This document shows positions 1-51,928 of a stretch of DNA of 51,928 nt, piece after piece. The position numbers and the translations under genes are program-made. Numbering within the stretch: position 1 is the stretch's first letter; every line of letters starts with the position of its first letter. The notes beneath the pieces were generated by a model. The model was not told where the DNA came from. It searched no databases and saw nothing but the letters and a program-made list of their open reading frames with translations. The stretch comes from a virus: UHGV virus genome UHGV-0019417, one strand, 5' to 3'.

Positions 1-79
1 TGTTCCCTATAGCAGATTCGAACTGCTCTACTTTCGTATCCACCCAACTGTGGCTAGGGATATAAGCCTTTATTTAGAC

Positions 80-565
80 TTATTCAATCACGATTTGTCC
101 CGTGGTCTTATCGATATAAAGTTGACTAATTTCTATCGAAGATACGGGCATACCATCCTCGTTAGTCTCTTTTGAGACCTTATGAATCGAGTAGCCGTAC
201 TCGTTCCAATGGTCCGATTCCACTGTTGCCCTAATTTCCATTAAGGCATCTATCGCGGCCTTTTCGGCGCAATAGTGTACATCGGACTTAGTCACAAAAT
301 CACCGTTGCAAGCGACCTCGAAAGTACACTTGCGCACAGGTCGGCTAGTAAAGCTTTTAGCCTTCTTGGCAGCCTCCTTGGCTTCTATAGCCGCCTTTTT
401 GGCTTCTATAGCCGCCTTTTTGGCTTTTTCCATCAATTCATTAGCCTCTTGCTCGGCTTTCTTGGCCATGATTTTGAGTTGTGAATTTTCGGCATTATTA
501 ACACTTTTGTTAACATTCTCGTTGGTCTTTTCGGCTGCCTTCTTTTCTGTTGTTTTAGTAGACAT
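80..565 (-). CDS. hypothetical early protein; Lys/Ala-rich low-complexity N-terminus (KKAAIEAK x2 from a 21-bp tandem duplication) and a globular C-terminal domain
   Basis: 161-aa ORF directly downstream (minus strand) of class-A structured leader repeat 566-680; stop codon abuts another class-A repeat copy. Confidence 0.5.
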   Translation of the reverse strand: MSTKTTEKKAAEKTNENVNKSVNNAENSQLKIMAKKAEQEANELMEKAKKAAIEAKKAAIEAKEAAKKAKSFTSRPVRKCTFEVACNGDFVTKSDVHYCAEKAAIDALMEIRATVESDHWNEYGYSIHKVSKETNEDGMPVSSIEISQLYIDKTTGQIVIE

Positions 566-608
566 AATTTTTAGGTTTTTTATGTTCTAGGCAAAATCGC
601 CTATTGTT

Positions 609-663
609 CCCTATAGTAGATTTGAACTACTCTACTTTCGTATCCATCCAATTATGGCTAGGG
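609..663 (-). ncRNA. class-A tRNA-like structured leader element, divergent copy (a)
   Basis: closing stem CCCTA/TAGGG encloses two hairpins, GTAG-ATTTGAA-CTAC and CCAT-CCAATT-ATGG; other copies have GCAG/CTGC and CCAC/GTGG, so both stems show compensatory changes. Confidence 0.55.
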
Positions 664-760
664 ATTTTGGCTTTATTGCTTTTTATCATTGGACCTTATC
701 CAATAATACAACTTGTGCATTATTTCAAATATCGTTGTGATTATTTTTTTAATCACATTG

Positions 761-792
761 CAAATGTATATGATATTTGCGCTCAAAAAAAA
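761..792 (-). promoter_or_regulatory. candidate Bacteroidota-type promoter (-7 box TACATTTG on minus strand) driving the leftward early operon
   Basis: reverse complement of 761-768 caaatgta = TACATTTG, with a T-rich/TTTG stretch about 15-20 nt upstream on the minus strand; about 190 nt upstream of ATG at 565. Confidence 0.35.
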
Positions 793-1123
793 TATTTCAC
801 TGATTATTTTTCGAGTTTAACCGTATTTTTTCCAATGTATTGATTTTCAATGATTTTGTAAATTGAGCTTTTAACGATTTTCACATAAATTTTATGCTAT
901 AGTACATAAATTTAAGCTTCACATTAACTTTTGCTTTTTTAACTTTTTTTTACACAATTCAAGTTTTGTAATATATCTATACTTTATATAAATTTGAGCA
1001 CTAAAGTGACTTAAAAACAATTCAAATTTAATATCTCACGTCGTCTCTATCGTATTATTTTATTAAAGCTTTAAGTGTATATATCTTATATATTAAAGTC
1101 GCTCAAAAGCGCTCAGAATCATT

Positions 1124-1208
1124 TCATTATTGTTATAAGTTCATTATTGTTATAAGTTCATTATTGTCATAAGTTCATTATTGTTATAAGTTCATTATTG
1201 TTATAAGC
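1124..1208. repeat. five tandem 17-bp iterons TCATTATTGTTATAAGT
   Basis: units at 1124, 1141, 1158, 1175, 1192 with 1-2 substitutions in total; intergenic between early operons. Confidence 0.8.
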
Positions 1209-1212
1209 TCAC

Positions 1213-1263
1213 GACACAAAGCCATAATCGCTGCTAGTTTAACAACAATTATGGCTTTGTGCC
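1213..1263. repeat. 14-bp inverted repeat CACAAAGCCATAAT(19 nt)ATTATGGCTTTGTG; second copy at 2141-2196
   Basis: near-identical element lies 3' of the paralogous minus-strand genes 1281..1493 and 2268..2582; not followed by a U-run, so not a classical terminator. Confidence 0.6.
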
Positions 1264-1280
1264 AAATATGTTAAATAGAT

Positions 1281-1493
1281 TTAGTTTCTATTGATGTAGT
1301 TTTTTATAACACTTTTTATGTTCTTTAGGATTCTATCATAGTTTTTGTTAAGGTCCTCTAAATCTAGTGTACAAATGTTATCATACACTAAACATTCGGC
1401 GATTTCGTGAGTAGTTGTTAGTTTATTTGGTTTATAGTTAGAAAGTGTTAAAAACTCAGCTACTTCGTTAATAAGTGTGTTTATAGTACGCAT
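1281..1493 (-). CDS. hypothetical small early protein; paralog of 2268..2582
   Basis: 70-aa ORF; N-terminus MRTINTLINEVAEFL and C-terminus NLxDLNKNYDxILKNIK shared with the 2268..2582 product. Confidence 0.5.
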   Translation of the reverse strand: MRTINTLINEVAEFLTLSNYKPNKLTTTHEIAECLVYDNICTLDLEDLNKNYDRILKNIKSVIKNYINRN

Positions 1494-1567
1494 AATGCTA
1501 ATATTTGTTAAAAGTTTAGCTACGAGGCTAAAAAGTATTAAAACCTCGTAGCTTTTGTTAATTTTTG

Positions 1568-1810
1568 TTAGTTTTCGTCGTAAATCGTTAAAGCGTCAAA
1601 AATATATTTGCCATTTGCAAAATATGCATAACAATTGTGAACGTCTTTTATGACTAATTCAACACTTTTAACGTTTTCTAGCCAATAAATGTCGATGTCA
1701 TAAAAATCTTTAAGTTTTTTAGCTAATTGTGAAAAATCGCTAAAATCTTCGTACCAATGCAAAAGTTTGTTAACGTCGCATTTTTTAATAATTTTAATTG
1801 TCTTAAGCAT
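1568..1810 (-). CDS. hypothetical small early protein
   Basis: 80-aa ORF preceded on the minus strand by a class-B promoter repeat (TATATTTGCAT). Confidence 0.5.
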   Translation of the reverse strand: MLKTIKIIKKCDVNKLLHWYEDFSDFSQLAKKLKDFYDIDIYWLENVKSVELVIKDVHNCYAYFANGKYIFDALTIYDEN

Positions 1811-1848
1811 AATTTTTAATTTTAGTTAGACTATATTTTTTATTAACT

Positions 1849-1944
1849 ATGCAAATATACTAATAAATATATAAGCATAAAAATTTTTAGGCATAATAAA
1901 CCAAAATAAATTTAAGATTTTTGTTAAATTGTATTCAAGCTAAA
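1849..1944 (-). promoter_or_regulatory. class-B early promoter repeat, copy 1; -7 box TATATTTG is the reverse complement of 1852-1859
   Basis: about 97-bp block roughly 90% identical to 2639-2735; contains TAnnTTTG about 40 nt upstream of ATG at 1810. Confidence 0.55.
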
Positions 1945-1946
1945 GT

Positions 1947-2064
1947 GTGTGAATAAAGCAAGTGATTATGTGAATAAAAGTTGATTTGATAGTAGATAGG
2001 TTAAATAAGCTTAACGCGTGCGTGGCTATGTGAATAAGAGTTGATTTGATAGTAGATAGGTTAA
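1947..2064. repeat. tandem duplication (60-bp period) of ATGTGAATAARAGTTGATTTGATAGTAGATAGGTTAA plus a third TGTGAATAA half-site
   Basis: 37-bp blocks at 1968-2004 and 2028-2064 nearly identical; intergenic. Confidence 0.7.
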
Positions 2065-2267
2065 TTGGTGTTAATAGTTAACAAGAATTATGGCTGAGAG
2101 CTAGGATTTAACCAAATTTAATGTATGGTAACGTTCATTCACGGCATAAAGCCATAATCGCTGCCAATTTAACAACAATTATGGCTTTATGCCAACTTAA
2201 ACTTATTTAACAATCATTATGGCACAAAACCATAACAATTGTTAAATAGGCTTAATGTTAAATAGGT

Positions 2268-2582
2268 TTAATATCCTTCACAATTATTTTCAATTTCAAT
2301 TTTTATGTTTTTTAGGACTTCATCATAATTTTCATTAAGATTTTCTAGACTATGTGAACGAAAGTAATCATTTATAAAAATTTCAGCAATTTCGTGAACG
2401 ACTTTTAATTCCTCTAAATTAAGTGAATAATTTTCGTCGTCATTTAATTTATCGAAAATTTCGTAAATAATTGTTTGATTCAATTTATGTTCTTCGACAA
2501 AAAAGTCAAATAACCATCCCGGAACGTTAAAAGTAATTAAATACTCTTGAACATCGTTAAAAAGTGTGTCTAAAGTGTGCAT
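2268..2582 (-). CDS. hypothetical small early protein; paralog of 1281..1493
   Basis: 104-aa ORF; shared N- and C-terminal motifs with 1281..1493; preceded by class-B promoter repeat copy 2. Confidence 0.5.
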   Translation of the reverse strand: MHTLDTLFNDVQEYLITFNVPGWLFDFFVEEHKLNQTIIYEIFDKLNDDENYSLNLEELKVVHEIAEIFINDYFRSHSLENLNENYDEVLKNIKIEIENNCEGY

Positions 2583-2638
2583 AATTTTTAATTTTTAATT
2601 TTTAATTTTGAACTTTAAGTTTTATTTTTTTATTTACA

Positions 2639-2735
2639 ATGCAAATATACTAATAAATATGTAAGCATAAAAATTTTTAGGCATAATAAATCAAAATAAA
2701 TTTAAGATTATTGTTAATAAGTATTTAAGCTAAAT
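2639..2735 (-). promoter_or_regulatory. class-B early promoter repeat, copy 2; -7 box is the reverse complement of 2642-2649
   Basis: ATGCAAATATACTAATAAATATGTAAGCATAAAAATTTTTAGGCATAATAAA... conserved with copy 1. Confidence 0.55.
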
Positions 2736-3058
2736 GCTGTTAAATTTTGGGCCCATTTGTGAAATAAGGTGTAGGGCCCTGTATATAAGTACTAGTACTC
2801 TGTCGCTCTCTTGCAAAAAAATTTTTAGACTATTCACCAAAATCGCTACAAATCTAAAAAAAATATAAATTTCTATTAAAGGTCAAAATATTTCTCAAAA
2901 ATAAAGCAGGCCCTTTCCAGGCTCGTTAATTTTTGTGAAATCTATCAAAATAAAAAATTAGATTGAATTTAGAATGGTTAAAAAATGTATAAAATAAAGC
3001 AGGCCCCCAGGCAAAAAAGTAGCTTTTGCTATTTACTCTTAGCAAAATTTATAGTTAC

Positions 3059-3687: not shown

Positions 3688-4425
3688 ATGAAACAAGAAG
3701 TAGTACACAGCCTAATTTCATCTTTGCTTCCAGAGCACGATGAATTAAATGAAAATTATAATTCTTCTGAAGATTTACAGAATGAAGTCCAACGAGTATC
3801 AGAAGAAAAAATACAAAAACAAAATGCAGCTACTCTGGCAAAATTAAAATTGCAAGAAAAGAAAAATATTGAAAAAATAAAAATGCAGGAAGCCAACCCT
3901 ACTTATGGCTTAAACAAAAAACAAAAAGAAAAACTCGAAAAAGAAAAGCAACAAACTTTACAAAATATAGCAGAACTTGAAGTAATAGAAGATTCACCTG
4001 AAGCACAGAATTTTTTATCAGGTGAAGGCCATTCTGATTTATCACCTTATGCAGGTACAACTAAAAGAGATGTTGTGAAGTTATTAGATTCATTAAATAT
4101 AAACCTTAATTTGTATTTAACTAGAACTGATACATATAATTTACTTTCATGCTTATTGACATGTAATGAAAATCAGTTAAATGCTTTATATAGTAATCCA
4201 CGTGTACCACTTGCAATAAAAACAGTAATAAAGCGATTAAAAGAAGATGCAAAACTCGGTAATGTAGAAACAATTGAAAGATTATGGGATAGAATTTTTG
4301 GTAAAACAAATGCAGCTATGCTTGAATTACCACAACAGAATCAATCATTACCTGGTATTATTCCAAATACAGTAGTTTCTCGTGAGGCTTATATGGTTAT
4401 TCGTGATACAATAATAGGTAAATAA
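3688..4425 (+). CDS. putative terminase small subunit
   Basis: 245-aa ORF immediately upstream of and abutting TerL; has a charged/coiled N-terminal half; assignment by position only. Confidence 0.35.
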   Translation: MKQEVVHSLISSLLPEHDELNENYNSSEDLQNEVQRVSEEKIQKQNAATLAKLKLQEKKNIEKIKMQEANPTYGLNKKQKEKLEKEKQQTLQNIAELEVIEDSPEAQNFLSGEGHSDLSPYAGTTKRDVVKLLDSLNINLNLYLTRTDTYNLLSCLLTCNENQLNALYSNPRVPLAIKTVIKRLKEDAKLGNVETIERLWDRIFGKTNAAMLELPQQNQSLPGIIPNTVVSREAYMVIRDTIIGK

Positions 4426-6277: not shown

Positions 6278-6922
6278 ATGGGACTTAATTGTGGATGCCC
6301 TGCAGGAGCATGCTTAGCTGACCTTAAGATTGCTGAATGCAAAGAAAGTCTGGGGCAGATTCAAAAAATCATCATTCAACGCATTTACAAGTCTACAGGC
6401 GAAAAGAATTCGATTCCTGTTGCTAGTATTTCTAAAAAGACTACCATGTCTCCTTTCTTTGCTGCTAAAGATGGTACAAAAATGGTAGTATCACCCTATG
6501 TACAGAATCCTATTACGACACCTGGTGAAGAGCGTACATTTGGTGGTGGTAATCAAACACTTGGTGGTATTGAAATTGTAATTGGTCGTGAGCCGACTAC
6601 ATTTGAAGGAGTTATCTATCAGGAACAGCAGTCAACCATTAAAACATTGAAGGAGTATAGCTGCGAAAATATCGGAGTTTATCTTATTGATGAAAATGGT
6701 AACATAGGTTGTTTAGCTGATGCTGATACACCAACAGCTTACATGCCTATTCCTGTAGGTAAATTCTTTGTAGGTGATAAAAATCTTGGTGGATATGAAG
6801 AGCCTGATAGCAATACTATTAAATGGAGTTTCTTCCCTAACTGGTCAGATAATCTTGTAATCGTAAAAGCTGATAAGTTTGATTACAATCCTTTGACTGA
6901 CCTCGCAAATGCAACAGCTTAA
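6278..6922 (+). CDS. hypothetical protein (head module)
   Basis: 214-aa ORF between terL and the putative portal, with its own promoter; Cys-rich N-terminus CGCPAGAC; no recognisable motif. Confidence 0.5.
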   Translation: MGLNCGCPAGACLADLKIAECKESLGQIQKIIIQRIYKSTGEKNSIPVASISKKTTMSPFFAAKDGTKMVVSPYVQNPITTPGEERTFGGGNQTLGGIEIVIGREPTTFEGVIYQEQQSTIKTLKEYSCENIGVYLIDENGNIGCLADADTPTAYMPIPVGKFFVGDKNLGGYEEPDSNTIKWSFFPNWSDNLVIVKADKFDYNPLTDLANATA

Positions 6923-7134
6923 TGAGAAAGATTAAAAAAGAAAAAACTGTTATTCTGTGTACACCTGATGGAGAAACGCGTGAGTTTACATTATCACACG
7001 CAGAACGCCTATTAGATATGGGTGATGCTCTAAATGGTGGCTGGAAAATAGTTGAAAACAGTAATTATTATTACGACGAAGAAAATGGCATTAGACTTAA
7101 ATCAGATAAAGCAAATATTGCAGAAACCGAGTAA
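6922..7134 (+). CDS. hypothetical small protein
   Basis: 70-aa ORF; overlaps the start of the next ORF by about 80 nt in another frame. Confidence 0.3.
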   Translation: MRKIKKEKTVILCTPDGETREFTLSHAERLLDMGDALNGGWKIVENSNYYYDEENGIRLKSDKANIAETE

Positions 7135-8866
7135 GAAGCAAACAATCCAAAAGGCTTCACTTCTGCAAAAGCGTCTTAGATTTCATACTGAGACAAATAC
7201 AGCTGTGTCTGATATAAATTTGCCTACTTCAAATTTTATTGATTGGGTAAATCATCTTCTTCCAAAAGATAAGTTTAATACATTTTTACATCTCTTTAAA
7301 TTTCCATTACCAACACCTGCTATTGCTGAAGATGTTTATAGAGATTTAGAGCGAGTATTTAATAGCCGTAATAGCTCATCATCATATCAATTCTCAAACG
7401 GAGAAATGTATGATGATTGGCAAAATTATAAACGAGAAAATCTACATGAACCTGAAATTTGGAAAACCGTAGGTTGGAACAAAATGAAAGTTTCTCCAAA
7501 TTCAGTTCTCATTGTAGATTTGCCACAGTCACAAACATCTCTATATCCAGAGCCATATTTTTACTGGCTTGATATAGAAAATGTTATTGACTATGAAACA
7601 TCTGACGGAACAGAACTAAACTGGATTGTTTTTAAGCAACCAGGTAATATGGTAGCTGTTTTCGATGATACATTTATGAGAGTATACCAGTTAAATGAGA
7701 AGAATGAAATTTCAGGTCTTGTCGTTGAATCGGTTCATAACCTGTCATATTGTCCAGCTCGTTTTTTCTGGTCTACTCCCTTAAATGAAAAGTACAGAGA
7801 TATTAAAAAGAATCCAATAACAAAAGAGCTTTCTAATTTCGATTGGTATTTATTCTTTTCAATATCTAAAAAGCATCTTGATTTGTATGCTCCGTACCCT
7901 ATTTATAGTGCATATGCAGCAGATTGTAACTTTGAGAATAATGAAACAGGTGACTACTGTGATGGTGGATTCTTACGAAATAGCAAGGGAGAGTATAAAA
8001 TACTTGCTGATGGTTCCATTGAGAAATGCCCTTGCTGTAGTGAAAAGCGAATAGCTGGTCCTGGTTCATTTCTCGAAGTTCCAATTCCAAGTCAAGCTGA
8101 AGGTGTTGCTGATTTAAGTAATCCAGTAACAATTACAACAATTGATAAAGACTCATTGGATTACAATGTGAATGAGTGTGATAGATTAAAAAATGAAATC
8201 ATATTATCGATTGTTGGTTCTGATGGAAATGTCAGTGAAAAAGAGGCTATCAATGAAACACAAGTTGCAGCTAATTTTGAAAGTAAAACAAGTGTTCTCA
8301 ATTCATTGAAAACTAACTTTGAATCAGCACAAAAATTTGTAGAAGATACAATATGTAGATTAAGATATGGTGAAGCATTTATATCATCATCTATTAACTG
8401 GGGAACAGAATTTTACGTTTATACAGTAAAAGAGTTGTATGATAAAATGAATCAAGCAAAAAGTAATGGAGCTTCTGATGCTGAATTAGATGCAATTACT
8501 CAACAAATTATAGAAGTTGAGTATAAAAATAATCCATTATTAATGCAGCGAATGCTTTTATTAAAGCAGATTGAACCATATCCACATAAGACACAAGACC
8601 AAATTCTTTCTTTGTATGAAAAAGGATTAGCTGATAAGTATAAAATGCTTATTAAACTTAACTTTTCATCATATATTGATAAGTTTGAACGTGAGAACAT
8701 TAACATTATTGCATTTGGAATAAATATTCCAATTAAGCAAAAAATTGAAATTATATACAATAAATTATTAGAATATGCAAAAGCAGATGACTCAATTGCA
8801 AGCTCTCAAGGCACAGAAGGAGCAGCTGGAAGCCAAGAAGGCAGAGCTACTCAAACTGAAGAGTGA
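7052..8866 (+). CDS. putative portal protein
   Basis: 604-aa ORF downstream of the terminase; size and position fit; acidic low-complexity tail; no motif verified. Confidence 0.45.
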   Translation: MKTVIIITTKKMALDLNQIKQILQKPSKKQTIQKASLLQKRLRFHTETNTAVSDINLPTSNFIDWVNHLLPKDKFNTFLHLFKFPLPTPAIAEDVYRDLERVFNSRNSSSSYQFSNGEMYDDWQNYKRENLHEPEIWKTVGWNKMKVSPNSVLIVDLPQSQTSLYPEPYFYWLDIENVIDYETSDGTELNWIVFKQPGNMVAVFDDTFMRVYQLNEKNEISGLVVESVHNLSYCPARFFWSTPLNEKYRDIKKNPITKELSNFDWYLFFSISKKHLDLYAPYPIYSAYAADCNFENNETGDYCDGGFLRNSKGEYKILADGSIEKCPCCSEKRIAGPGSFLEVPIPSQAEGVADLSNPVTITTIDKDSLDYNVNECDRLKNEIILSIVGSDGNVSEKEAINETQVAANFESKTSVLNSLKTNFESAQKFVEDTICRLRYGEAFISSSINWGTEFYVYTVKELYDKMNQAKSNGASDAELDAITQQIIEVEYKNNPLLMQRMLLLKQIEPYPHKTQDQILSLYEKGLADKYKMLIKLNFSSYIDKFERENINIIAFGINIPIKQKIEIIYNKLLEYAKADDSIASSQGTEGAAGSQEGRATQTEE

Positions 8867-31912: not shown

Positions 31913-31998
31913 GCCTCAGTGGTGAAAGTGGTAGACACGAAAGACTTAAAATCTTTTAAACAGAAATGTTTGTGCAGGTTCGAATCCTGTCTGAGGTA
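31913..31998 (+). tRNA. tRNA-Leu (anticodon UAA), type II with a long variable arm
   Basis: acceptor GCCTCAG/CTGAGGT (G1-U72), D-arm GTG-AAAGTGGTAGA-CAC, anticodon arm AAAGA-CTTAAAA-TCTTT, 17-nt variable hairpin, T-arm GCAGG-TTCGAAT-CCTGT, discriminator A. Confidence 0.8.
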
Positions 31999-32020
31999 CA
32001 AAATTCTAAGATTAATTTAT

Positions 32021-40140: not shown

Positions 40141-41910
40141 ATGACTACAAACAACAATTATTTGCTAATTACACTAGGCCACAACTCATCTGCATTATTT
40201 ATTGATAACACAAACGGGTGTGACCAAAAAATTATTGGCTATGAACAAGAAAGACTTTCAAGAATTAAATCTGATAGCCAATTTCCATTTGATGCAATCA
40301 ATGAAATTAAAAAGCATGTACCATTTTCTAAATTAGAGGGATGCCAAATACGAATTTCTCACTGGTTTGATGACTTTCTTCCTTCTAGCAATAAGTATAT
40401 TGGTGAAAATGGATTCAGAATGCTAAAAGAAATTTCTACAAATATTGTAGATACTAATGGCAATGGCTTTACACACCATGACGCTCACGCTTATAGTGCA
40501 TATAATTTTATGCTAGAATCGAATACTGATTTGAAGTATTTTAACAAACCAATATATTGTATTGTAGCAGATGGTTTTGGTAATCAGCAAGAAGTTTTTT
40601 CAATTTACGCATTTACACCAAATATTGATACAAAACCAAAGTGTATTTTTAAATCCTACGGCTATTATCAATCTCTTGGTTTGATGTACCAATTTGCAAC
40701 ATCATTTGTTGGAATGAAAGAAAACCAAGATGAATATAAATTTTTAGGATATGAATCACATATCGCTGAAGTTTTAAGTGAGCAACAAATTGCAATGCTA
40801 ACATCTGTTGCTGAATTTGATTCTGACAAAATGATAAAAAGAATAAAAGAGTGCACAGAAAAAATTCAAATTTCAGATATTGATAAAAATATTGGAATCA
40901 GTATTTCTGATTTAGATAAAGCTCGAGATTTATTCAATCATTTATTCTCAAGAGTTTTTAAACATTTAGGCATTGATAAAGATAATAATATTCATATTTC
41001 AAGAGTTATAATGGGATATTATGTACAATGCATCATAGAATCTGTTATTACTAGCTTTATTGATGAATATGAAATGAATAATGTCTGCGTTGCTGGTGGA
41101 TGTTTCTACAATGTAAAATTAAACAATTCAATACTTGAAGCAATAGATGGTTATTTTAGTGCTATGCCTTTAGCAGGAGACCAAGGAGCAGCAATAGGAA
41201 TGTATGCAAAAGAAGTCGGATTTAATTCTAATATTTCTATTAAGTTTAATACGCTGAATTTTGGTAAAAGAAATTTCTATAATGCAGACAAACTAGTATC
41301 TAAAATAAACAATGCATATTATTTTACAAACAGTAAATATGCAGCTATGGCAATATCAGATTTTATTTCAAATGATTGTATTGTTAATATAATACATAAT
41401 GATATGGAATTTGGTCCAAGAGCATTGGGGCATACTTCAACTTTATTTTTGCCAACAGAAGAAAATGTGGCATTTGTAAATTATATAAATAACAGAAATG
41501 AAGTTATGCCATGTGCACCTATATGTACAATTGGAAGTGCTCATGATTTATTTGACATCTATGAATTATCAAGGACAGTCGGTTCTGATAGATTTATGAT
41601 TTGTACACATAAGTATATGAGAAAATATAATAAGCTTTATGGTGGTGTAATGCATAAAAAACCTTTGATTAAAGATTATACTGGAAGACCACAAATTGTA
41701 ACAAAAAATGAAAATTTCTTATATACAATTCTAGAATCTGTTAAAAAAGATACAGGCTATACATGCTTAGTTAATACTAGTTTTAATGTACATGGCCAAC
41801 CTATTGTATTTGATATACACAGTATTATTCAGAATTTTATGTATCAGCAAGCACAAACTTATACGCATAAATTCAATAAAAAAGTTGTATTGGTAATTAT
41901 TAATGATTAA
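40141..41910 (+). CDS. carbamoyltransferase, NodU/CmcH/TobZ family (Kae1-like N-domain plus YrdC-like C-domain)
   Basis: 589 aa; N-terminus LLITLGHNSSALFID....IIGYEQERLSRIKSDSQFPFDAI matches the carbamoyltransferase N-terminal signature (LG.HDS..AL...G....A..EER..R.K.D..FP). Confidence 0.65.
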   Translation: MTTNNNYLLITLGHNSSALFIDNTNGCDQKIIGYEQERLSRIKSDSQFPFDAINEIKKHVPFSKLEGCQIRISHWFDDFLPSSNKYIGENGFRMLKEISTNIVDTNGNGFTHHDAHAYSAYNFMLESNTDLKYFNKPIYCIVADGFGNQQEVFSIYAFTPNIDTKPKCIFKSYGYYQSLGLMYQFATSFVGMKENQDEYKFLGYESHIAEVLSEQQIAMLTSVAEFDSDKMIKRIKECTEKIQISDIDKNIGISISDLDKARDLFNHLFSRVFKHLGIDKDNNIHISRVIMGYYVQCIIESVITSFIDEYEMNNVCVAGGCFYNVKLNNSILEAIDGYFSAMPLAGDQGAAIGMYAKEVGFNSNISIKFNTLNFGKRNFYNADKLVSKINNAYYFTNSKYAAMAISDFISNDCIVNIIHNDMEFGPRALGHTSTLFLPTEENVAFVNYINNRNEVMPCAPICTIGSAHDLFDIYELSRTVGSDRFMICTHKYMRKYNKLYGGVMHKKPLIKDYTGRPQIVTKNENFLYTILESVKKDTGYTCLVNTSFNVHGQPIVFDIHSIIQNFMYQQAQTYTHKFNKKVVLVIIND

Positions 41911-41916
41911 GCAAAA

Positions 41917-42576
41917 ATGAAAAAGCTATATACTCCATACATTGTAGCTTTTTCTGGTGGTTGTTTTTCTGGTAAAACAACCACCATTAAAAAAATTGCT
42001 GAAAAATTAAGGCAACTTGGCTATACTGTATATGTTTTAAATGAAAATATAAGGGACAAAAATGTATTTAGAAAAGCAGGTAATATAGATAATATTAGGC
42101 AAGACCCGAATTCTTATTTGCTTTTACAAAATGAAATAATAAGAGAAAAAATAGAAAATGAAAATGAAATATTGGGAGTTAAATACACTACTAAAACTAT
42201 AATTTTAGTTGATAGGGCTTTAACTGATTCATTGTTTTATTTATCATGCTATGTTGACAAAGTTAATCTAACACTAGAAAATAAAAAAACATTTAAGCAT
42301 CTGTTTAGTTATATTTATATGATTCTTTTACTCAGTAAAAGGTATGATAAAGTATTAGAATTTAGGCCTATAAAAATTGAAAATATCGATAAATACAGGC
42401 CTAAAGATTTAGAGCATTTGCACTTTTTTGAGTATGAAATGATTCATTGCCTTAACAATAATTTTTTTGATAAAAGCATTATGGAAAAAAATATAAACAT
42501 AAAGCAAGAAAGCTGTATAGATAATTTAGTAAATAATATAATAAGAGATTATGCAATTAAACAACGAACAAATTAA
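41917..42576 (+). CDS. P-loop kinase, deoxynucleotide/deoxynucleoside-kinase-like; candidate modified-dNMP or 5-hmdU DNA kinase
   Basis: Walker A AFSGGCFSGKTTT; DRA lid-like motif (VDRALTD). Confidence 0.5.
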   Translation: MKKLYTPYIVAFSGGCFSGKTTTIKKIAEKLRQLGYTVYVLNENIRDKNVFRKAGNIDNIRQDPNSYLLLQNEIIREKIENENEILGVKYTTKTIILVDRALTDSLFYLSCYVDKVNLTLENKKTFKHLFSYIYMILLLSKRYDKVLEFRPIKIENIDKYRPKDLEHLHFFEYEMIHCLNNNFFDKSIMEKNINIKQESCIDNLVNNIIRDYAIKQRTN

Positions 42577-43333
42577 AAATTTAATAACATCTCCACATTG
42601 GCAAAAAATATTTAAGCAATTATATAATTCAAAAAATTCAGAAAATGATAGCTGTTTTGAGTTAATCGGATTTCAATATTCATTTAACCCACGAAAAAAT
42701 TATATAATATCAAGAAATAAATTAGTTTTTGATATAGAGAAAGCTGCAAAAATGTATTATTGGTATAAAAATAAAAACAGTAGTGATAAATCAATAATTG
42801 ATAGCTTTCCTGAATATGAAAATTGTTTTTATGGAGGAAAATTTTTAAGTAAACAAAAATGCAATTCTAATTATGGAATATATGCATATAATAAAAATGG
42901 ATTAGATTTTTGTATTGAAAAGTTAAAAGCAAATTATAAAACAAGGCAAGCTTGCTTTTGTATAAATAATAATAAAGCAATGTCTTCACCAGATAAACTT
43001 TGTACAAATACAATTCATTTTAATATAAAAAATGAGAGACTGATTATGGTTATACAAATGAGGTCATCAAATTTTTTAACTTTACTTCCTTATGATATTT
43101 TTAACTTTACAATTTTTTATGCTTATGTGTATGAAGCTTTAAGAGATTATTATTTTAATTTGAAAACGTGCGATATTGTAATGCAAATAAACTCATTGCA
43201 CTGTTATACAAAAGATTTAATAAAAGCTATTGGTATAAAAGATTTATCTTATCCAAATAATCTTTTAAGCTTTTCTGTTAAAAAAATAATAAATAATTTT
43301 GAAAATAATTTAAAAAGATGCAACGAACAATGA
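42551..43333 (+). CDS. divergent ThyA-family protein (thymidylate synthase / pyrimidine hydroxymethylase fold)
   Basis: IQMRSSNFLTLLPYDIFNFTIFYA aligns to ThyA QRSxDxFLGxPFNIASYALL; Cys in QACFC aligns to PCH; the residue at the ThyA Asn177 position is not Asn/Asp. Confidence 0.5.
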   Translation: MQLNNEQIKNLITSPHWQKIFKQLYNSKNSENDSCFELIGFQYSFNPRKNYIISRNKLVFDIEKAAKMYYWYKNKNSSDKSIIDSFPEYENCFYGGKFLSKQKCNSNYGIYAYNKNGLDFCIEKLKANYKTRQACFCINNNKAMSSPDKLCTNTIHFNIKNERLIMVIQMRSSNFLTLLPYDIFNFTIFYAYVYEALRDYYFNLKTCDIVMQINSLHCYTKDLIKAIGIKDLSYPNNLLSFSVKKIINNFENNLKRCNEQ

Positions 43334-43839
43334 CACCAGGAAAATTTAGATTTACAAAAGTACGTGATGTAAAATCACCAGTTAGAGGTACAAACTTATC
43401 TGCTGGTATTGATTTTTTTGTACCAAAAGATTTTAAGCCATTTGTTCTTTTGCCACATAAGGATGTGTTAATCCCGTCTGGTATTAAAGCCTCATTTGAA
43501 AAAGTTTGTATGCTAATGGCAGCAGAAAAATCAGGCGTAACAAGCTCAGCTGAAGCAAAAGCTATTTCTAATATGGATGCTAATAATTCATACCAATCAC
43601 CTACAGTTTTAGGAGCAAAGATTGTTGATGCAGATTATCAAGGAGAAATACACATCCACATTATAAATGTAGGTAATAAACCTATTCTTATTGAGCCAGA
43701 CAAGAAAATAGCTCAGTTTATTTTAGTGCCTGTTTTATATTGCGAAATTGAAGAGATAGATTCAGAAAAAGAATTGTTCGCAAATGAATGCTCTTCTCGT
43801 GGTAACAAAGGTTTTGGTAAAGGAACTGGTGAAAATTAA
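43318..43839 (+). CDS. dut: dUTPase (trimeric dUTPase/dCTP-deaminase superfamily)
   Basis: motif I SAGIDF, motif III GAKIVDADYQGE, motif IV IAQFILVPV. Confidence 0.8.
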   Translation: MQRTMTPGKFRFTKVRDVKSPVRGTNLSAGIDFFVPKDFKPFVLLPHKDVLIPSGIKASFEKVCMLMAAEKSGVTSSAEAKAISNMDANNSYQSPTVLGAKIVDADYQGEIHIHIINVGNKPILIEPDKKIAQFILVPVLYCEIEEIDSEKELFANECSSRGNKGFGKGTGEN

Positions 43840-43844
43840 ATGAT

Positions 43845-44297
43845 ATGACAATTGGAAAAGCTTTAGAGTTAGTAGACACTCCTGTATTTTTGCAGAATGT
43901 TGAAAAATACTTAAATAAATGGCTATATTTAGCTAAATTGCCCAATGGGCCGTTAGGAAGATGGCTTTGTGAATATCAGCAAATGGAAGATAAAGGATTA
44001 TTTAAGCCTGCTATCTTTAAAGCTTTTTATAAATTAGAATTGCAAAGCAAGTTAAATATAGGCTTTATAAAAAGTTGTCCAGTTCATTATGTTGGTGTAT
44101 ATGCTATGGATGATACATATTTATATTATAGCTTACGAGAGCATAGTTATAAAATATGTGTTATTACAGGAGAAATAGCATGTGATGATGATGGTGATGA
44201 TTTAATAGGTTTATCTTATGATGAAGCTAAAGAAATTTGTGATTCTATGAATATTGAAGCTGAAGAAAAATTATTTAAAATAATGGTAAATGATTAG
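43845..44297 (+). CDS. hypothetical protein
   Basis: 150-aa ORF inside the nucleotide-metabolism cluster; acidic C-terminus. Confidence 0.4.
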   Translation: MTIGKALELVDTPVFLQNVEKYLNKWLYLAKLPNGPLGRWLCEYQQMEDKGLFKPAIFKAFYKLELQSKLNIGFIKSCPVHYVGVYAMDDTYLYYSLREHSYKICVITGEIACDDDGDDLIGLSYDEAKEICDSMNIEAEEKLFKIMVND

Positions 44298-44949
44298 TCT
44301 AATATGTAAAAATGCTACAGAAGCTTTTGAGATATTGTATGAAACAATTTCAAGAGTTGGCCAATCTACTAATATAGATACAAAAGCTATTTATAATGTA
44401 AGTATTGAAATACAAAATCCAACCGATAGAAATATAACAACACATTGGAGAAAATGGAGTAAAAAATATGCTGAAAGAGAATGGAACTGGTATTTATCAG
44501 CAAATCCTTCTGTACAAGAAATTAAAAAGTTTGCTCCTATGTGGGATAAAATGCACAGCGGAAATAATATTGTAAATTCAAATTATGGCTTCCAATGGTC
44601 AAGAAACAAGCAACTACAAAAAGTAATTGAACAACTACAAAAAAATCCTAATTCTCGTCAAGCATGGATTACTATCTACGATGGAAAAGAAAAAGATAAT
44701 TATGATTTTGATACACCTTGCACATTAGCTGTAGGATTTGATATAAAGCCAAATAGCGAATCAGTTGATATGACAGTGTGTATGAGGTCAAATGATTTAA
44801 TATATGGATTTTGTAATGACCAGTATTGTTTTAGTAAATTACAAGAATATGTAGCTCATCTTTTAAACAGGCCAGTTGGAACATATACTCATTTTGCACA
44901 TGACATGCATATTTATAATAATAAACTTAACTTAAAAAATTATGAATAA
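44290..44949 (+). CDS. ThyA-family enzyme, uracil-type (thymidylate synthase or dUMP hydroxymethylase)
   Basis: YGFQWS, NPNSRQAWITIY, catalytic DTPCTL (PCH equivalent), MRSNDLIYGFCNDQYCF (QRSxD..G.PFN), HIYNN with Asn at the ThyA N177 position; short at 219 aa. Confidence 0.75.
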   Translation: MISLICKNATEAFEILYETISRVGQSTNIDTKAIYNVSIEIQNPTDRNITTHWRKWSKKYAEREWNWYLSANPSVQEIKKFAPMWDKMHSGNNIVNSNYGFQWSRNKQLQKVIEQLQKNPNSRQAWITIYDGKEKDNYDFDTPCTLAVGFDIKPNSESVDMTVCMRSNDLIYGFCNDQYCFSKLQEYVAHLLNRPVGTYTHFAHDMHIYNNKLNLKNYE

Positions 44950-50475: not shown

Positions 50476-50571
50476 GCTAATATTTCCAAATATATCTAAT
50501 GTTAAACGAGGTTTTTTATACAAACATAAAAATAAGCCAAGCAAACTATTTTCTAGTATGCTTGGCTTAAA

Positions 50572-50880
50572 TTATATATGCAAAGCAAGTATAAACTGCT
50601 TTGTATTTTTACCATAATTATTATGTGTTTCACTTATTAAACTAACAGGAAAATCATTAATAATTTTGGTAATAAAATTATTTATTTGTTTTTCAACATT
50701 TGGTTTTATAGCATTACTACTACAAAATGTAATAGTAATATCCATATAACCTCCTGGCCCAAATGCTCTAGACCCACAATGCCATGAAACCAAATCTAAT
50801 TTCAATTTTGTACAGAGCTTATCTGCTAAATCTCTAATTTGGTTGTAAGCATTGATTTCTTCTTGAGTTTCATTTATCAT
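50572..50880 (-). CDS. hypothetical small early protein
   Basis: 102-aa ORF overlapping the upstream gene by 11 nt (operon). Confidence 0.45.
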   Translation of the reverse strand: MINETQEEINAYNQIRDLADKLCTKLKLDLVSWHCGSRAFGPGGYMDITITFCSSNAIKPNVEKQINNFITKIINDFPVSLISETHNNYGKNTKQFILALHI

Positions 50881-51166
50881 TGAGCATTTTGTTTATGGCT
50901 AAGTTTGATTTGATTGTTTTCAATAAATCATTCAAATCAAATTTAACATAGTCAATTAAGCCTGGTTCTGTATCAAAGTGAGCTTCATACTTATCTATTA
51001 AAAACAAAGCGAAGTTATATATCGTAAACAAATCTCTAAAGCTTGTATTACTAATAGCCTCGTAAGTCTTAATAATCATATCAAGGTCTTCTTTGCTAAA
51101 CCAACACATCAAATCGACTTGCAAAAATATAGCCAACTTGTGTTTACTTTTCTCATCTAATTTCAT
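50870..51166 (-). CDS. hypothetical small early protein; paralog of 51274..51591
   Basis: 98 aa; shares WFSKEDL..I.K.YEA.S.T.F and INKMLN C-terminus with 51274..51591; preceded by class-A leader. Confidence 0.5.
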   Translation of the reverse strand: MKLDEKSKHKLAIFLQVDLMCWFSKEDLDMIIKTYEAISNTSFRDLFTIYNFALFLIDKYEAHFDTEPGLIDYVKFDLNDLLKTIKSNLAINKMLNDK

Positions 51167-51290
51167 AATTTTAGGGTTGTTTTATGTTCTAGGCAATGTC
51201 GCCTATTGTTCCCTATAGCAGATTCGAACTGCTCTACTTTCGTATCCACCCAACTGTGGCTAGGGATATAAGCCTAATTAGACTTATTAA
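51167..51290 (-). repeat. class-A leader repeat copy (d); tRNA-like core at 51211-51265
   Basis: CATAATTTTAGGGTTGTTTTATGTTCTAGGCAATGTCGCCTATTGTTCCCTATAGCAGATTCGAACTGCTCTACTTTCGTATCCACCCAACTGTGGCTAGGGATATAAGCCT, near-identical to copies b and c. Confidence 0.8.
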
Positions 51291-51591
51291 GCATTTTATT
51301 TATAACATAACTAGGTTTAGTTGCTCTTAACAACCTAGTTAGCTCAAATCTAATAAAATCAAATGCTTCTTGGCTTTCTACGTTAAAGCCCGCATTAACA
51401 TATTGATTTATCAAAAACCAAGCGAAATTACGTGTCTTAGTTTTCGTAGGTGCTTCAAATTTAGTAGAGCTAAGAGCCTCGTATACTTTCATAATAAAAG
51501 CGAGGTCTTCTTTGCTAAACCAAGACATCATATTGACCTCATACACTTTAGTGATAAAAACGAGGTCTTTACGTCCTTCAGTTGATTCCAT
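51274..51591 (-). CDS. hypothetical small early protein; paralog of 50870..51166
   Basis: 105-aa ORF preceded by class-A leader copy (c). Confidence 0.5.
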   Translation of the reverse strand: MESTEGRKDLVFITKVYEVNMMSWFSKEDLAFIMKVYEALSSTKFEAPTKTKTRNFAWFLINQYVNAGFNVESQEAFDFIRFELTRLLRATKPSYVINKMLNKSN

Positions 51592-51715
51592 AATTTTAGG
51601 GTTGTTTTATGTTCTAGGCAATGTCGCCTATTGTTCCCTATAGCAGATTCGAACTGCTCTACTTTCGTATCCACCCAACTGTGGCTAGGGATATAAGCCT
51701 TTATTTAGGCTTTTT
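51592..51715 (-). repeat. class-A leader repeat copy (c); tRNA-like core at 51646-51690
   Basis: identical core sequence to copy d. Confidence 0.8.
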
Positions 51716-51890
51716 TGGTTTTCGTAAAATTTAAGTTTACTTGCCACTTTGAGAATAGCAAGGCGAGTTCCATTTCTTTTTCGTGGTCTGTAAATCGCCA
51801 CTTGAGCCCAATTCCCATGGCTATTTTACATTCTGAATCAATGACTTCACACTTTGTTTCGTAGTAAGCCTTGTTTGTAATAATTTTCAT
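51705..51890 (-). CDS. hypothetical small early protein
   Basis: 61-aa ORF; its upstream class-A leader spans the window junction (51891-51928 plus 1-88). Confidence 0.45.
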   Translation of the reverse strand: MKIITNKAYYETKCEVIDSECKIAMGIGLKWRFTDHEKEMELALLFSKWQVNLNFTKTKKA

Positions 51891-51928
51891 AATTTTAGGT
51901 TTTTTATGTTCTAGGCAATGTCGCCTAT
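51891..51928 (-). repeat. class-A leader repeat copy (b), 5' part; continues seamlessly at window positions 1-88 (tRNA-like core at 5-59)
   Basis: ...GGCAATGTCGCCTAT | TGTTCCCTATAGCAGATTCGAAC... reproduces the copy c/d sequence across the end/start junction. Confidence 0.8.

What the first reader, a model, noticed from the sequence alone, without database searches (positions are those of the whole stretch)
566..680. Compensatory substitutions in the divergent copy support both hairpins of the tRNA-like leader
Seen: copy (a) differs from copies b-d at about 12 positions. In hairpin 1, GCAG...CTGC becomes GTAG...CTAC, with both strands changed and pairing preserved. In hairpin 2, CCAC...GTGG becomes CCAT...ATGG, again a double change that preserves pairing. 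The closing CCCTA/TAGGG stem is unchanged. Two independent compensatory pairs in a 55-nt element are unlikely by chance and argue for selection on secondary structure (RNA, or cruciform DNA) rather than on a protein-binding sequence. A minus-strand TAnnTTTG box (TACATTTG, reverse complement of 761-768) lies about 95 nt upstream of this copy and is a candidate promoter for the whole leftward array.
Basis: seen in the sequence. Interest (0 to 1): 0.65.

Follow-up and report, generated by a model that had tools for sequence, protein, structure and literature searches.

The report
tRNA-like punctuation elements between phage genes
The repeat is a miniature tRNA look-alike that sits in front of each small gene of a leftward operon in a Bacteroides-type phage. 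It belongs to a widespread phage RNA family that I could not find described, and it most likely tells the host's tRNA-trimming enzymes where to cut a long transcript into separate, hairpin-capped messages.

Summary
Copy a (608-664, minus strand) differs from identical copies b-d at 6 of 55 core positions. All six are transitions: four form two compensated pairs and two are loop purines that stay purines.

The functional strand is the minus (gene) strand. The RNA folds as a reduced cloverleaf: a 6-bp acceptor stem, a D-like arm showing GG, a 3-bp GAAA mini-arm, a T arm with loop UUCRAAU, and then A-CAA.

Relatives reached through the neighbouring protein carry 2-8 copies each, always just upstream of small genes. 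More distant phages carry a 46-nt short form. In 53 short-form elements chosen by loop motifs alone, 92% of predicted pair cells are paired, against 58% after shuffling. The acceptor and T stems together are always 12 bp, as in tRNA.

Hairpins abut both borders, and the next ATG lies about 41-43 nt downstream.

Neither Rfam nor the searchable literature describes the family.

Best explanation (inferred, not shown): the elements are tRNA-style punctuation. RNase P and RNase Z would excise the element and leave monocistronic mRNAs capped by hairpins.

The TAnnTTTG promoter box exists and matches promoter-like repeats of related Bacteroides fragilis phages, but no transcription start was mapped.

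The parts
752..768 (-). Promoter-like box TACATTTGCAATGTGAT (contains TAnnTTTG). Candidate start of the leftward operon.
   Evidence: Exact match to the 17-nt motif. The same motif type (TATATTTGTAATGTGATAA) is repeated upstream of small genes in B. fragilis phage BF486P2. Function is inferred, not mapped.
608..664 (-). tRNA-like element, copy a (divergent). Acceptor stem 659-664 with 608-613.
   Evidence: 111 bits with R1; 18.0 bits with R2, a model built without any window sequence.
604..607 (-). 3' tail A-CAA of copy a (discriminator-like A, then CAA in the place of CCA).
   Evidence: CAA in 80 and CCA in 10 of 95 family members.
588..603 (-). Downstream hairpin UAGGCG-AUUU-UGCCUA of copy a, starting 4 nt after the acceptor stem.
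   Evidence: helix 5: 99% paired, with one compensated pair and G.U/A-U alternation.
80..587 (-). A-rich leader (566-587) and gene A (161 aa; ATG 563-565, stop 80-82).
   Evidence: 76 homologs in metagenomic phage contigs.
64..81 (-). Hairpin at the end of gene A. It contains part of the stop codon. As read it ends 3 nt before copy b; as extended by the fold it ends 1 nt before copy b.
   Evidence: -7.1 kcal/mol, 0 of 200 shuffles as good.
4..60 (-). tRNA-like element, copy b. Its tail (3-1 plus 51928) and its hairpin run across the window junction.
51705..51927 (-). Hairpin of copy b (51912-51927), leader, and gene B (61 aa, 51705-51890).
51695..51712 (-). Hairpin between gene B and copy c, ending 3 nt before copy c.
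51635..51691 (-). tRNA-like element, copy c. Its tail is at 51631-51634.
   Evidence: 26.4 bits, E = 9e-6.
51274..51630 (-). Hairpin of copy c (51615-51630), leader, and gene C (105 aa, 51274-51591).
51270..51285 (-). Hairpin at the end of gene C. As read it ends 3 nt before copy d; as extended by the fold it ends 1 nt before copy d.
51210..51266 (-). tRNA-like element, copy d. Its tail is at 51206-51209.
   Evidence: (the minimum-energy fold is the four-arm cloverleaf).
50572..51205 (-). Hairpin of copy d (51190-51205), leader, gene D (98 aa, 50870-51166) and the overlapping gene E (102 aa, 50572-50880). Gene E has no element of its own.
50520..50568 (-). Strong hairpin followed by a U-rich tract. 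Likely terminator of the leftward operon.
   Evidence: -23.3 kcal/mol, z = -5.8. Read from the sequence.

Best explanation
Each copy is a cis-acting, tRNA-like RNA element on the minus-strand transcript of a leftward operon of small genes, in a phage related to Bacteroides fragilis phages.

Shown:
- It folds into a reduced cloverleaf whose acceptor and T stems form the 12-bp stack of a tRNA. A T loop (UUCRANU closed by G-C) and a GG-presenting loop can make the tRNA elbow. The 3' tail is N-C(A/C)A.
- It is one long-form member of a large family found almost only in phage sequence.
- It always lies between the stop codon of one small gene and about 40 nt before the ATG of the next.

Inferred:
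- Host tRNA-maturation endonucleases recognise it. RNase P would cut at its first base, and RNase Z (or an equivalent enzyme) would cut after the discriminator-like base.
- The polycistronic transcript would thus be cut into separate messages, as in mitochondrial tRNA punctuation and plant mitochondrial t-elements.
- The upstream message would be left ending in a hairpin 1-3 nt from the cut, which protects its 3' end.
- The downstream message would begin with CAA plus a hairpin (a 5' stem-loop that protects against 5'-end-dependent RNases), followed by a roughly 22-nt unstructured A-rich leader that fits a ribosome.
- The excised 57-nt (or 46-nt) RNA may be discarded or may have a role of its own.
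For: Structure and covariation:
- The minimum-energy fold of copies b-d is the four-arm cloverleaf.
- Long-form alignment: 97.7% paired, 5 doubly changed pairs, 0 of 500 shuffles.
- Short-form alignment, selected by unpaired motifs only: 91.9% paired against 58.2% shuffled and 34-49% for slid partners; covariation 0.85 against 0.23.

tRNA hallmarks:
- The G-C pair closing the T loop is invariant in 53 of 53, and UUCGA and UGG are invariant.
- The base after the T stem pairs with the linker in 81% of elements, with 4 Watson-Crick pair types, but with acceptor position 7 in only 49%. The result is 6+6 = 12 bp throughout.
- Tail is CAA in 80 and CCA in 10 of 95.
- The phage's genuine tRNA-Leu is also followed by A-CAA, and model R2 cross-hits it.

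Membership: R2, built from 44 short forms of other phages, finds all four window copies on the minus strand.

Context:
- 2-8 copies per related phage and at least 12 in L040, all co-oriented with the genes.
- The upstream stop codon ends -1 to about +10 nt from the first base of the element.
- A hairpin begins exactly 3-4 nt after the discriminator in 62 of 95. The ATG is 37-44 nt away in 62 of 95, and 19-29 nt away in most elements that lack the hairpin.
- Upstream hairpins ending 1-4 nt before the element are enriched: 37% have MFE <= -5, against 14% of shuffles.

Phage specificity: the same loop-only pattern gave 19 of 20 T-stem-paired hits in viral contigs but only about 6 of 54 well-paired hits in 596 Gb of bacterial genomes.
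Against: - There is no transcript-end or cleavage data, so the nucleases are inferred from mimicry alone.
- In about one fifth of junctions the last A of the UAA stop codon is the first base of the element. A cut by RNase P there would leave a message without a stop codon.
- The tail is usually CAA, not CCA. In L040 it is CCA, which in some bacteria blocks RNase Z, so one single 3' enzyme may not fit all members.
- 26 of 95 elements lack the downstream hairpin.
- The closest isolated relatives (BF486P2 and its group) have no such element and use repeated promoters instead. The element is therefore dispensable for this genome type.
- No tRNA-processing gene was found in the phage. That fits the use of host enzymes but does not prove it.
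Confidence: 0.6

Rival explanations
1. Translation element. The tRNA-like fold and hairpin stay on the mRNA and act as an insulator or standby platform. They keep the A-rich leader unpaired, or dock the ribosome through its tRNA- or elbow-binding sites, in a host that lacks Shine-Dalgarno pairing. No cleavage is involved.
For: Fixed spacing to the ATG (37-44 nt; 19-29 nt in most elements without the hairpin) and a conserved A-rich leader. Stop codons that overlap the first base of the element are harmless if nothing is cut.
Against: Insulation does not need a T loop, a GG loop, a 12-bp stack or an N-C(A/C)A tail, yet all of these are conserved. Hairpins abutting both borders are not explained.
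Confidence: 0.15
2. Trans-acting product. The released small tRNA mimic is the point. It could act as a decoy or inhibitor for host tRNA-directed enzymes or anti-phage tRNA nucleases, or as a sponge for RNase P, CCA-adding enzyme or elongation factors. Its position between genes would then simply be a way to express many copies.
For: High copy number per genome (up to 12 or more in L040). Strong conservation of elbow features. Location among small genes that are plausibly expressed early.
Against: There is no anticodon arm, so the element cannot decoy anticodon nucleases. Acceptor sequences vary freely between copies, which argues against mimicry of one specific tRNA. The tight coupling to stop codons, hairpins and ATG distance points to a role in cis.
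Confidence: 0.1
3. Binding site for a phage or host protein that regulates each cistron (a translational repressor or an RNA chaperone), with the tRNA resemblance being incidental.
For: A repeated operator-like position before each gene. Invariant loop bases (UGG, UUCGA) could be protein contacts.
Against: The full set of tRNA-specific features (G53-C61 equivalent, 7-nt T loop, 12-bp stack, C-N-A tail) is hard to explain as coincidence. The family spans unrelated phages with unrelated neighbouring proteins, so no shared phage protein partner is evident.
Confidence: 0.08
4. DNA-level element: a cruciform, a recombination site that shuffles gene cassettes, or a replication signal.
For: Copies b-d are identical over about 100 nt while the flanking genes differ. 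This suggests gene conversion, and such repeats can mediate cassette exchange, like the promoter stem-loop cassettes of T4-type phages (from my own knowledge).
Against: Strand asymmetry: only the gene strand gives a T loop and tail, and orientation always follows the genes. There are 6 G.U against 2 A.C pairs among members. Unpaired loop bases are conserved. Recombination is more likely a side effect.
Confidence: 0.04
5. Decayed tRNA genes, or chance similarity.
For: Phages carry tRNA genes, and one (tRNA-Leu) is in this genome.
Against: Covariation is pervasive, and the non-tRNA architecture is itself conserved across 95 distinct elements. Unpaired random hits in bacterial genomes show what chance looks like.
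Confidence: 0.01

Closest known systems
Plant mitochondrial t-elements (Hanic-Joyce et al. 1990; Forner et al. 2007, PMC1920247, read)
   Same: Non-canonical tRNA-like folds with a well-conserved T arm, embedded next to protein-coding genes. Their borders coincide with mRNA 5' and 3' ends, and they are cut by RNase P and RNase Z. Some cuts fall inside reading frames and give messages without a stop codon.
   Different: Those are organellar, sporadic, unrelated in sequence, and mostly full cloverleaf relics. Here the element is a regular, repeated, minimised module (46-57 nt) with flanking hairpins in phage operons. Processing is not demonstrated here.
Animal mitochondrial tRNA punctuation (Ojala, Montoya and Attardi 1981; from my own knowledge)
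   Same: tRNA-shaped units between cistrons define cleavage sites. UA or U stop codons that abut the tRNA resemble the UA|A junctions seen here.
   Different: The mitochondrial units are real, decoding tRNAs. Stop codons there are completed by polyadenylation, which is not known for Bacteroides or for phage messages.
Viral and cellular tRNA-like processing signals: MHV68 tRNA-miRNA units, MALAT1 mascRNA, engineered tRNA-gRNA arrays (from my own knowledge)
   Same: A tRNA-like unit followed directly by a hairpin or the next functional RNA, and separated from it by RNase Z and/or RNase P.
   Different: Those are eukaryotic systems with full cloverleaves. None sits in a bacterial or phage mRNA.
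tRNA-like domain of tmRNA
   Same: Acceptor stem plus T arm plus a reduced D-loop analogue, with no anticodon arm. A weak Rfam tmRNA T-arm hit was seen in L040.
   Different: The G3.U70 alanine identity pair is absent. There is no tag reading frame and there are no pseudoknots. ARAGORN finds no tmRNA.
RNase P cleavage in intergenic regions of E. coli polycistronic mRNAs (Li and Altman 2003; from my own knowledge)
   Same: The idea that RNase P separates bacterial cistrons and sets different message stabilities.
   Different: The E. coli sites have no recognisable, conserved tRNA-like module.
Catalogue of about 10,000 candidate structured RNAs in viruses and phages (PMC10690425)
   Same: It reports unnamed tRNA-like candidates and cis-elements upstream of phage genes from IMG/VR. 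This family may be among them.
   Different: No description of this architecture, its repeated arrangement between genes, or a processing model was found in the text I searched.

Membership tests
Canonical tRNA (Rfam RF00005 / ARAGORN) | 7-nt T loop UUCRANY closed by a G53-C61 pair on a 5-bp stem | tested here: met
   UUCGAAU/UUCAAAU in the window. The closing G-C is invariant in 53 of 53, and the T stem is 97% paired with 4 covarying pairs.
Canonical tRNA (Rfam RF00005 / ARAGORN) | D loop with GG able to meet the T loop | tested here: met
   Loop ARUUGG in the window's D-like arm. The UGG triloop is invariant in short forms. The tertiary contact itself is inferred.
Canonical tRNA (Rfam RF00005 / ARAGORN) | Acceptor and T stems forming a 12-bp stack | tested here: met
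   6+6 bp in short forms, shown by the covarying pair between columns 20 and 38. In the window: 6 bp, plus 5 bp, plus a G.A at the sixth T-stem position.
Canonical tRNA (Rfam RF00005 / ARAGORN) | Anticodon arm (5 bp with a 7-nt loop) | tested here: not met
   The window has only UAC-GAAA-GUA, which is 3 bp with a tetraloop. Short forms have no such arm at all.
Canonical tRNA (Rfam RF00005 / ARAGORN) | Detected by tRNA finders or the tRNA covariance model | tested here: not met
   ARAGORN reports only tRNA-Leu at 31913-31999. Rfam gives no tRNA hit at the element even at E <= 10.
Canonical tRNA (Rfam RF00005 / ARAGORN) | Discriminator base followed by CCA (encoded or added) | tested here: inconclusive
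   N-CAA in 80 and N-CCA in 10 of 95 elements. The window has A-CAA, the same as the trailer of its real tRNA-Leu.
tRNA-like processing signals (t-elements / tRNA punctuation; a functional class) | tRNA-like fold adjacent to protein-coding genes on the same transcript strand | tested here: met
   Always co-oriented with the genes and lying between stop codon and ATG.
tRNA-like processing signals (t-elements / tRNA punctuation; a functional class) | mRNA 5' and 3' ends coincide with the element's borders | not testable with these tools
   No transcript data are available. Indirect support only: hairpins abut both borders.
tRNA-like processing signals (t-elements / tRNA punctuation; a functional class) | Cleavage by RNase P and/or RNase Z | not testable with these tools
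   Needs in vitro or in vivo assays.
tmRNA tRNA-like domain | G3.U70 identity pair, tag reading frame, pseudoknots | tested here: not met
   The pair between columns 3 and 42 is C-G in 39 of 53 and never G.U. No tmRNA was called.
3'-terminal viral tRNA-like structures (TYMV/BMV type) | At the 3' end of the genome, aminoacylatable, with a pseudoknotted acceptor arm | tested here: not met
   The elements are internal and repeated in a dsDNA phage, and the acceptor is an ordinary 5'/3' helix. Aminoacylation is not testable here.
The phage tRNA-like family defined here (model R2) | Significant match to a covariance model built from independent members | tested here: met
   All four window copies match on the minus strand: 26.4, 26.4, 18.0 and 15.3 bits (E = 9e-6 to 0.03; the last copy is cut by the window end).
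Bacteroides-type promoter (TAnnTTTG box; consensus recalled from my own knowledge) | TAnnTTTG upstream of the transcription unit | tested here: met
   TACATTTG at 761-768 on the minus strand. The extended 17-mer is shared with BF486P2 repeats. As a loose pattern the motif is not rarer than chance in the window (25 matches against 26.7 expected at up to 3 mismatches).
Bacteroides-type promoter (TAnnTTTG box; consensus recalled from my own knowledge) | Upstream TTTG element at the proper spacing, and a mapped start site | not tested
   I did not evaluate the spacing against a verified consensus, and there are no start-site data.

The most novel reading that the evidence does not exclude
Phages of Bacteroidales and of other hosts use a bacterial counterpart of mitochondrial tRNA punctuation. 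A purpose-built minimal tRNA mimic of 46-57 nt (12-bp acceptor/T stack, T loop, UGG loop, C-N-A tail) is placed between cistrons. Host RNase P and RNase Z then dice early operons into individually stabilised, hairpin-capped messages. At some junctions the cut would fall inside the UAA stop codon. The excised mimics may accumulate as a new class of phage small RNA.
Probability: 0.45. Interest if true: 0.85.

Novelty: new variant of a known kind. Interest (0 to 1): 0.75.

Why it matters
If the processing model is right, it would be the first regular tRNA-punctuation system described for bacterial viruses. It would show that phages borrow the host's most conserved RNA-processing enzymes to control the stability and stoichiometry of their messages.

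It would also define about the smallest natural tRNA mimic that still keeps the elbow and the 12-bp ruler. That makes it useful for studying how RNase P, RNase Z and CCA-adding enzyme recognise substrates.

It would offer a compact natural part for multigene expression in Bacteroides, a host without Shine-Dalgarno-based design rules.

Practically, the covariance model marks gene starts and operon structure in otherwise unannotatable regions of small genes in gut phage genomes.

Tried and rejected
Searches that found nothing useful:
- Megablast of 1-3000 against GenBank phages: no match.
- tblastn of gene A's protein against GenBank phages: none.
- An exact-ish 30-nt pattern in IMG/VR: none.
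- A long-form loop pattern in IMG/VR: 7 hits, all unpaired chance matches.
- Gene C's protein as a query for related loci: none.
- A protein-profile scan of metagenome contigs: only 2 loci.
- Rfam at gathering and at permissive thresholds on the window, L040 and L021: no family. There were only weak hits such as Plastid-ycf2 on the antisense strand and a tmRNA T-arm fragment.
- Eight literature searches found no description in phages.

Relatives without the element:
- The closest isolated relatives (B. fragilis phages; TerL 69% identical) lack the element in the equivalent region.

Readings I rejected:
- A sigma-70-like TTGCCT-17-TAAAAT inside each unit. Its -10 box ends 1 nt before the ATG, and Bacteroides does not use that consensus.
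- A 7-bp acceptor stem with a pair between positions 7 and 66. It is paired in only 49% of elements, against 81-90% for the alternative pairs 7-13, 8-12 and 20-38.
- An attP-like partial tRNA. There are many different copies per genome, the 5' strand is present and covaries, and no integrase is in the context.
- A phage-encoded tRNA-processing enzyme. None was found among the ORFs I scanned.

Full report
**What is in the window**

The window is a circularly permuted complete phage genome; its end joins its start inside one of the repeats. Terminase, portal, primase-helicase and polymerase genes lie on the + strand. The nearest GenBank relatives are Bacteroides fragilis phages BF503P1 and BF486P2, with 69% identity in the large terminase.

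A run of small genes lies on the minus strand across the junction:
- Gene A: 80-565, 161 aa.
- Gene B: 51705-51890, 61 aa.
- Gene C: 51274-51591, 105 aa.
- Gene D: 50870-51166, 98 aa.
- Gene E: 50572-50880, overlapping gene D.

A repeat of about 100 nt precedes genes A to D. Its 55-nt cores lie at 609-663 (a), 5-59 (b), 51636-51690 (c) and 51211-51265 (d).

**Checking the observation**

Copies b, c and d are identical in the core. Copy a differs at six core positions, all of them transitions. Two hit the two sides of one pair in hairpin 2. Two lie in loops, where a purine stays a purine. All 17 core pairs are kept. Six random transitions would produce two or more compensated pairs with p = 0.006, or 0.003 if no pair may be broken.

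**Anatomy of the window element**

Read on the minus (gene) strand, the element is:

U-CCCUA / G / CCAC-AGUUGG-GUGG / A / UAC-GAAA-GUA / G / AGCAG-UUCGAAU-CUGCU / A / UAGGG-A / A-CAA

It is followed by the hairpin UAGGCG-ACAU-UGCCUA, an A-rich leader of about 22 nt, and the ATG.

The minimum-energy fold of copies b-d is a four-arm cloverleaf:
- a 6-bp acceptor stem;
- a D-like arm whose loop ends in GG;
- a 3-bp arm with a GAAA tetraloop where the anticodon arm would be;
- a 5-bp T arm with a canonical 7-nt T loop.

ARAGORN and Rfam do not call the element a tRNA or any known family.

**Homologs reached independently of the RNA**

Gene A's protein has 76 homologs in metagenomic data, many on contigs of 50-54 kb. 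I fetched the contigs that encode homologs of 40-86% identity.

A covariance model of the four window copies (R1) finds 2-8 elements per contig. They are always on the gene strand and always just upstream of small genes.

Sixteen distinct long-form copies give 97.7% paired cells, five pairs changed on both sides, and 0 of 500 shuffles as good. In detail:
- The T-stem change C-G to U-A recurs in another phage, and a second T-stem pair changes G-C to A-U.
- The mini-arm shows the series A-U, G.U, G-C.
- The downstream hairpin has one compensated pair.
- The D-like arm is invariant except in window copy a.
- Uncompensated cells are rare: one A.C, one C.C and one G.A.

**A short form, and a family far beyond this phage group**

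More distant relatives carry a 46-nt short form in which 11-14 nt replace both the D-like arm and the mini-arm.

A scan of IMG/VR with a pattern made only of unpaired motifs (TGGWAC..G, GTTCGANTC, CAA) returned 24 loci. Of 20 distinct hits, 19 have a perfect 5-bp T stem, although the pattern did not ask for pairing. One contig, L040, comes from an unrelated phage of higher GC content. It has at least 12 copies between consecutive small genes, most of them with the tail C-CCA.

I collected 53 distinct elements using loop motifs alone and aligned them with MAFFT. The counts are:
- 91.9% of pair cells paired, against 58.2% after shuffling and 34-49% with slid partners.
- Covariation score 0.85 against 0.23.

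The refined short form has these parts:
- a 6-bp acceptor stem;
- a 2-bp stem closing an invariant UGG triloop (pairs 7-13 and 8-12, each with two or three pair types);
- a 6-bp T stem.

The base after the T stem pairs with the last linker base in 81% of elements, with four Watson-Crick pair types. It pairs with acceptor position 7 in only 49%. The acceptor and T stems therefore always sum to 12 bp, the length of the tRNA minihelix.

A model built from 44 short forms, with no window sequence in it (R2), finds all four window copies on the minus strand. It also cross-hits the 3' half of the phage's real tRNA-Leu. The window elements are therefore long-form members of this family.

The same loop-only pattern in 596 Gb of bacterial genomes gave 54 hits, of which only about 6 are well paired. 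These lie on contigs assigned to MAGs from Bacteroidales, Prevotellaceae, Clostridia and a few other lineages. This shows what chance hits look like, and it shows that the family is essentially confined to phage sequence.

**Context rules**

Over 95 distinct well-paired elements:
- The three bases after the discriminator-like base are CAA in 80, CCA in 10 and CUA in 3.
- A hairpin begins exactly 3-4 nt after the discriminator in 62.
- The next ATG lies 37-44 nt after the acceptor stem in 62. It lies 19-29 nt after it in most elements that lack the hairpin. An unstructured leader of about 20-25 nt is therefore constant.
- The stop codon of the upstream gene ends between -1 and about +10 nt from the first base of the element. 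In about a fifth of cases the last A of UAA is that first base.
- Hairpins ending 1-4 nt before the element are enriched: 37% have MFE <= -5 kcal/mol, against 14% for shuffles.

In the window, all three internal junctions have such an upstream hairpin. Two of them include part of the stop codon. A strong hairpin followed by a U-rich tract lies after gene E.

**Strand, and RNA rather than DNA**

Only the gene strand reads as a T loop closed by G-C and followed by N-C(A/C)A. Orientation always follows the genes. Unpaired loop bases are invariant. G.U pairs outnumber A.C pairs 6 to 2 among members. This favours a transcript-level element over a cruciform.

**Mechanism**

This part is inference. 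The conserved features are exactly those read by enzymes that handle the top half of a tRNA: RNase P, RNase Z and the CCA-adding enzyme. Those features are the T loop, a GG loop to form the elbow, a 12-bp stack, and a C-N-A tail.

Hairpins at both borders fit excision of the element. The upstream message would end in a 3' hairpin. The downstream message would start with three unpaired bases and a 5' stem-loop, followed by a leader of ribosome-binding length. The phage's genuine tRNA-Leu has the same A-CAA trailer, so both could share a route of 3' processing.

The closest documented analogues are plant mitochondrial t-elements. There, tRNA-like folds with conserved T arms define mRNA ends through RNase P and RNase Z, and some cuts fall inside reading frames (PMC1920247). 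Animal mitochondrial tRNA punctuation is another analogue (from my own knowledge).

Weak points:
- There are no end-mapping data.
- Stop codons overlapping the first base would be cut.
- CCA tails in L040 could block RNase Z.
- A quarter of the elements lack the downstream hairpin.
- Related isolated phages do without the element and use repeated promoters instead.

**Promoter**

TACATTTGCAATGTGAT lies on the minus strand at 752-768, 97 nt upstream of copy a. Near-identical motifs are repeated upstream of small genes in BF486P2. A weaker copy lies at 2633-2649 in front of the upstream gene cluster. This fits the Bacteroides TAnnTTTG box (from my own knowledge). It makes copy a the first element of a transcription unit of about 2.2 kb that ends near 50520. 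The start site is not mapped.

**Novelty**

Rfam 15 has no matching family. Eight full-text searches found no description of such elements in phages. A 2023 catalogue of about 10,000 unnamed viral RNA candidates mentions tRNA-like structures in general and may contain this one.

I rate it a new variant of a known kind. tRNA-like processing signals are already known. What is new is the setting (phage operons) and the regular, minimised architecture.

Noticed in passing
window 1118-1211: Five tandem copies of a 17-bp unit (ATAAGTTCATTATTGTT), 93-100% identical, in the AT-rich gap between the two leftward gene clusters. They could be iterons of an origin or operator sites.
   Followed up: no
window 1209-1265 and 2139-2195: Two copies (91% identical) of a 57-nt sequence that forms a long hairpin with arms of about 21 nt. 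Each lies just downstream of a leftward small-gene cluster. They are probably terminators or processing hairpins, and they bound the unit that carries the tRNA-like elements.
   Followed up: no
window 31913-31999: A genuine tRNA-Leu (anticodon UAA). Its 3' trailer begins A-CAA, the same as the tail of the tRNA-like elements. The listed GTG start of the polymerase ORF (31874) overlaps the tRNA, so the real start is probably further downstream.
   Followed up: partly
window 40141-44949: A cluster of nucleotide-metabolism genes: carbamoyltransferase-like, kinase-like, dUTPase/dCTP-deaminase-like and thymidylate-synthase-like. In BF486P2 the last is annotated as deoxycytidylate 5-hydroxymethyltransferase. 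The cluster suggests hypermodified DNA bases.
   Followed up: no
window 51274-51591 and 50870-51166: Genes C and D look like paralogues (shared M.WFSKEDL..I.K.YEA.S motif and the ending INKMLN). They have no hits in Pfam or PHROGs.
   Followed up: no
window copies b-d (about 100 nt each): The three repeats are identical over the element, the hairpin and most of the leader, while the genes between them are unrelated or diverged. This points to gene conversion or recent duplication of the module.
   Followed up: no
L021 3897-3982, L054 about 3899-3957, L024 3647-3706: The first element of each array, just after the promoter region and before the homologue of gene A, is a distinct long form with an extra internal hairpin and an imperfect T stem. 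Window copy a is likewise the odd one out. A special role for the first element is possible.
   Followed up: partly
L040 2943-2985, 5332-5374, 5704-5745, 6127-6168: In this unrelated phage the linker after the UGG loop is complementary to 5-7 nt of the acceptor 5' strand. A long alternative hairpin could therefore compete with the acceptor stem, giving a possible two-state fold. Unexplained.
   Followed up: no
L015 3984-3986 and 4610-4612, and other junctions listed: The last A of the upstream UAA stop codon is the first base of the tRNA-like element. A cut at that base would leave UA, as at some mitochondrial gene ends.
   Followed up: partly
window 369-410: A 21-bp tandem duplication inside gene A. 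It encodes a repeated KAAIEAK segment of an alanine- and lysine-rich region.
   Followed up: no
L008 (BF486P2) 6893-6951 and 7247-7305: The related isolated phage has a repeated 59-nt promoter-like leader before its small genes, where this phage has tRNA-like elements. The two lineages seem to use different solutions for expressing the same kind of gene array.
   Followed up: partly
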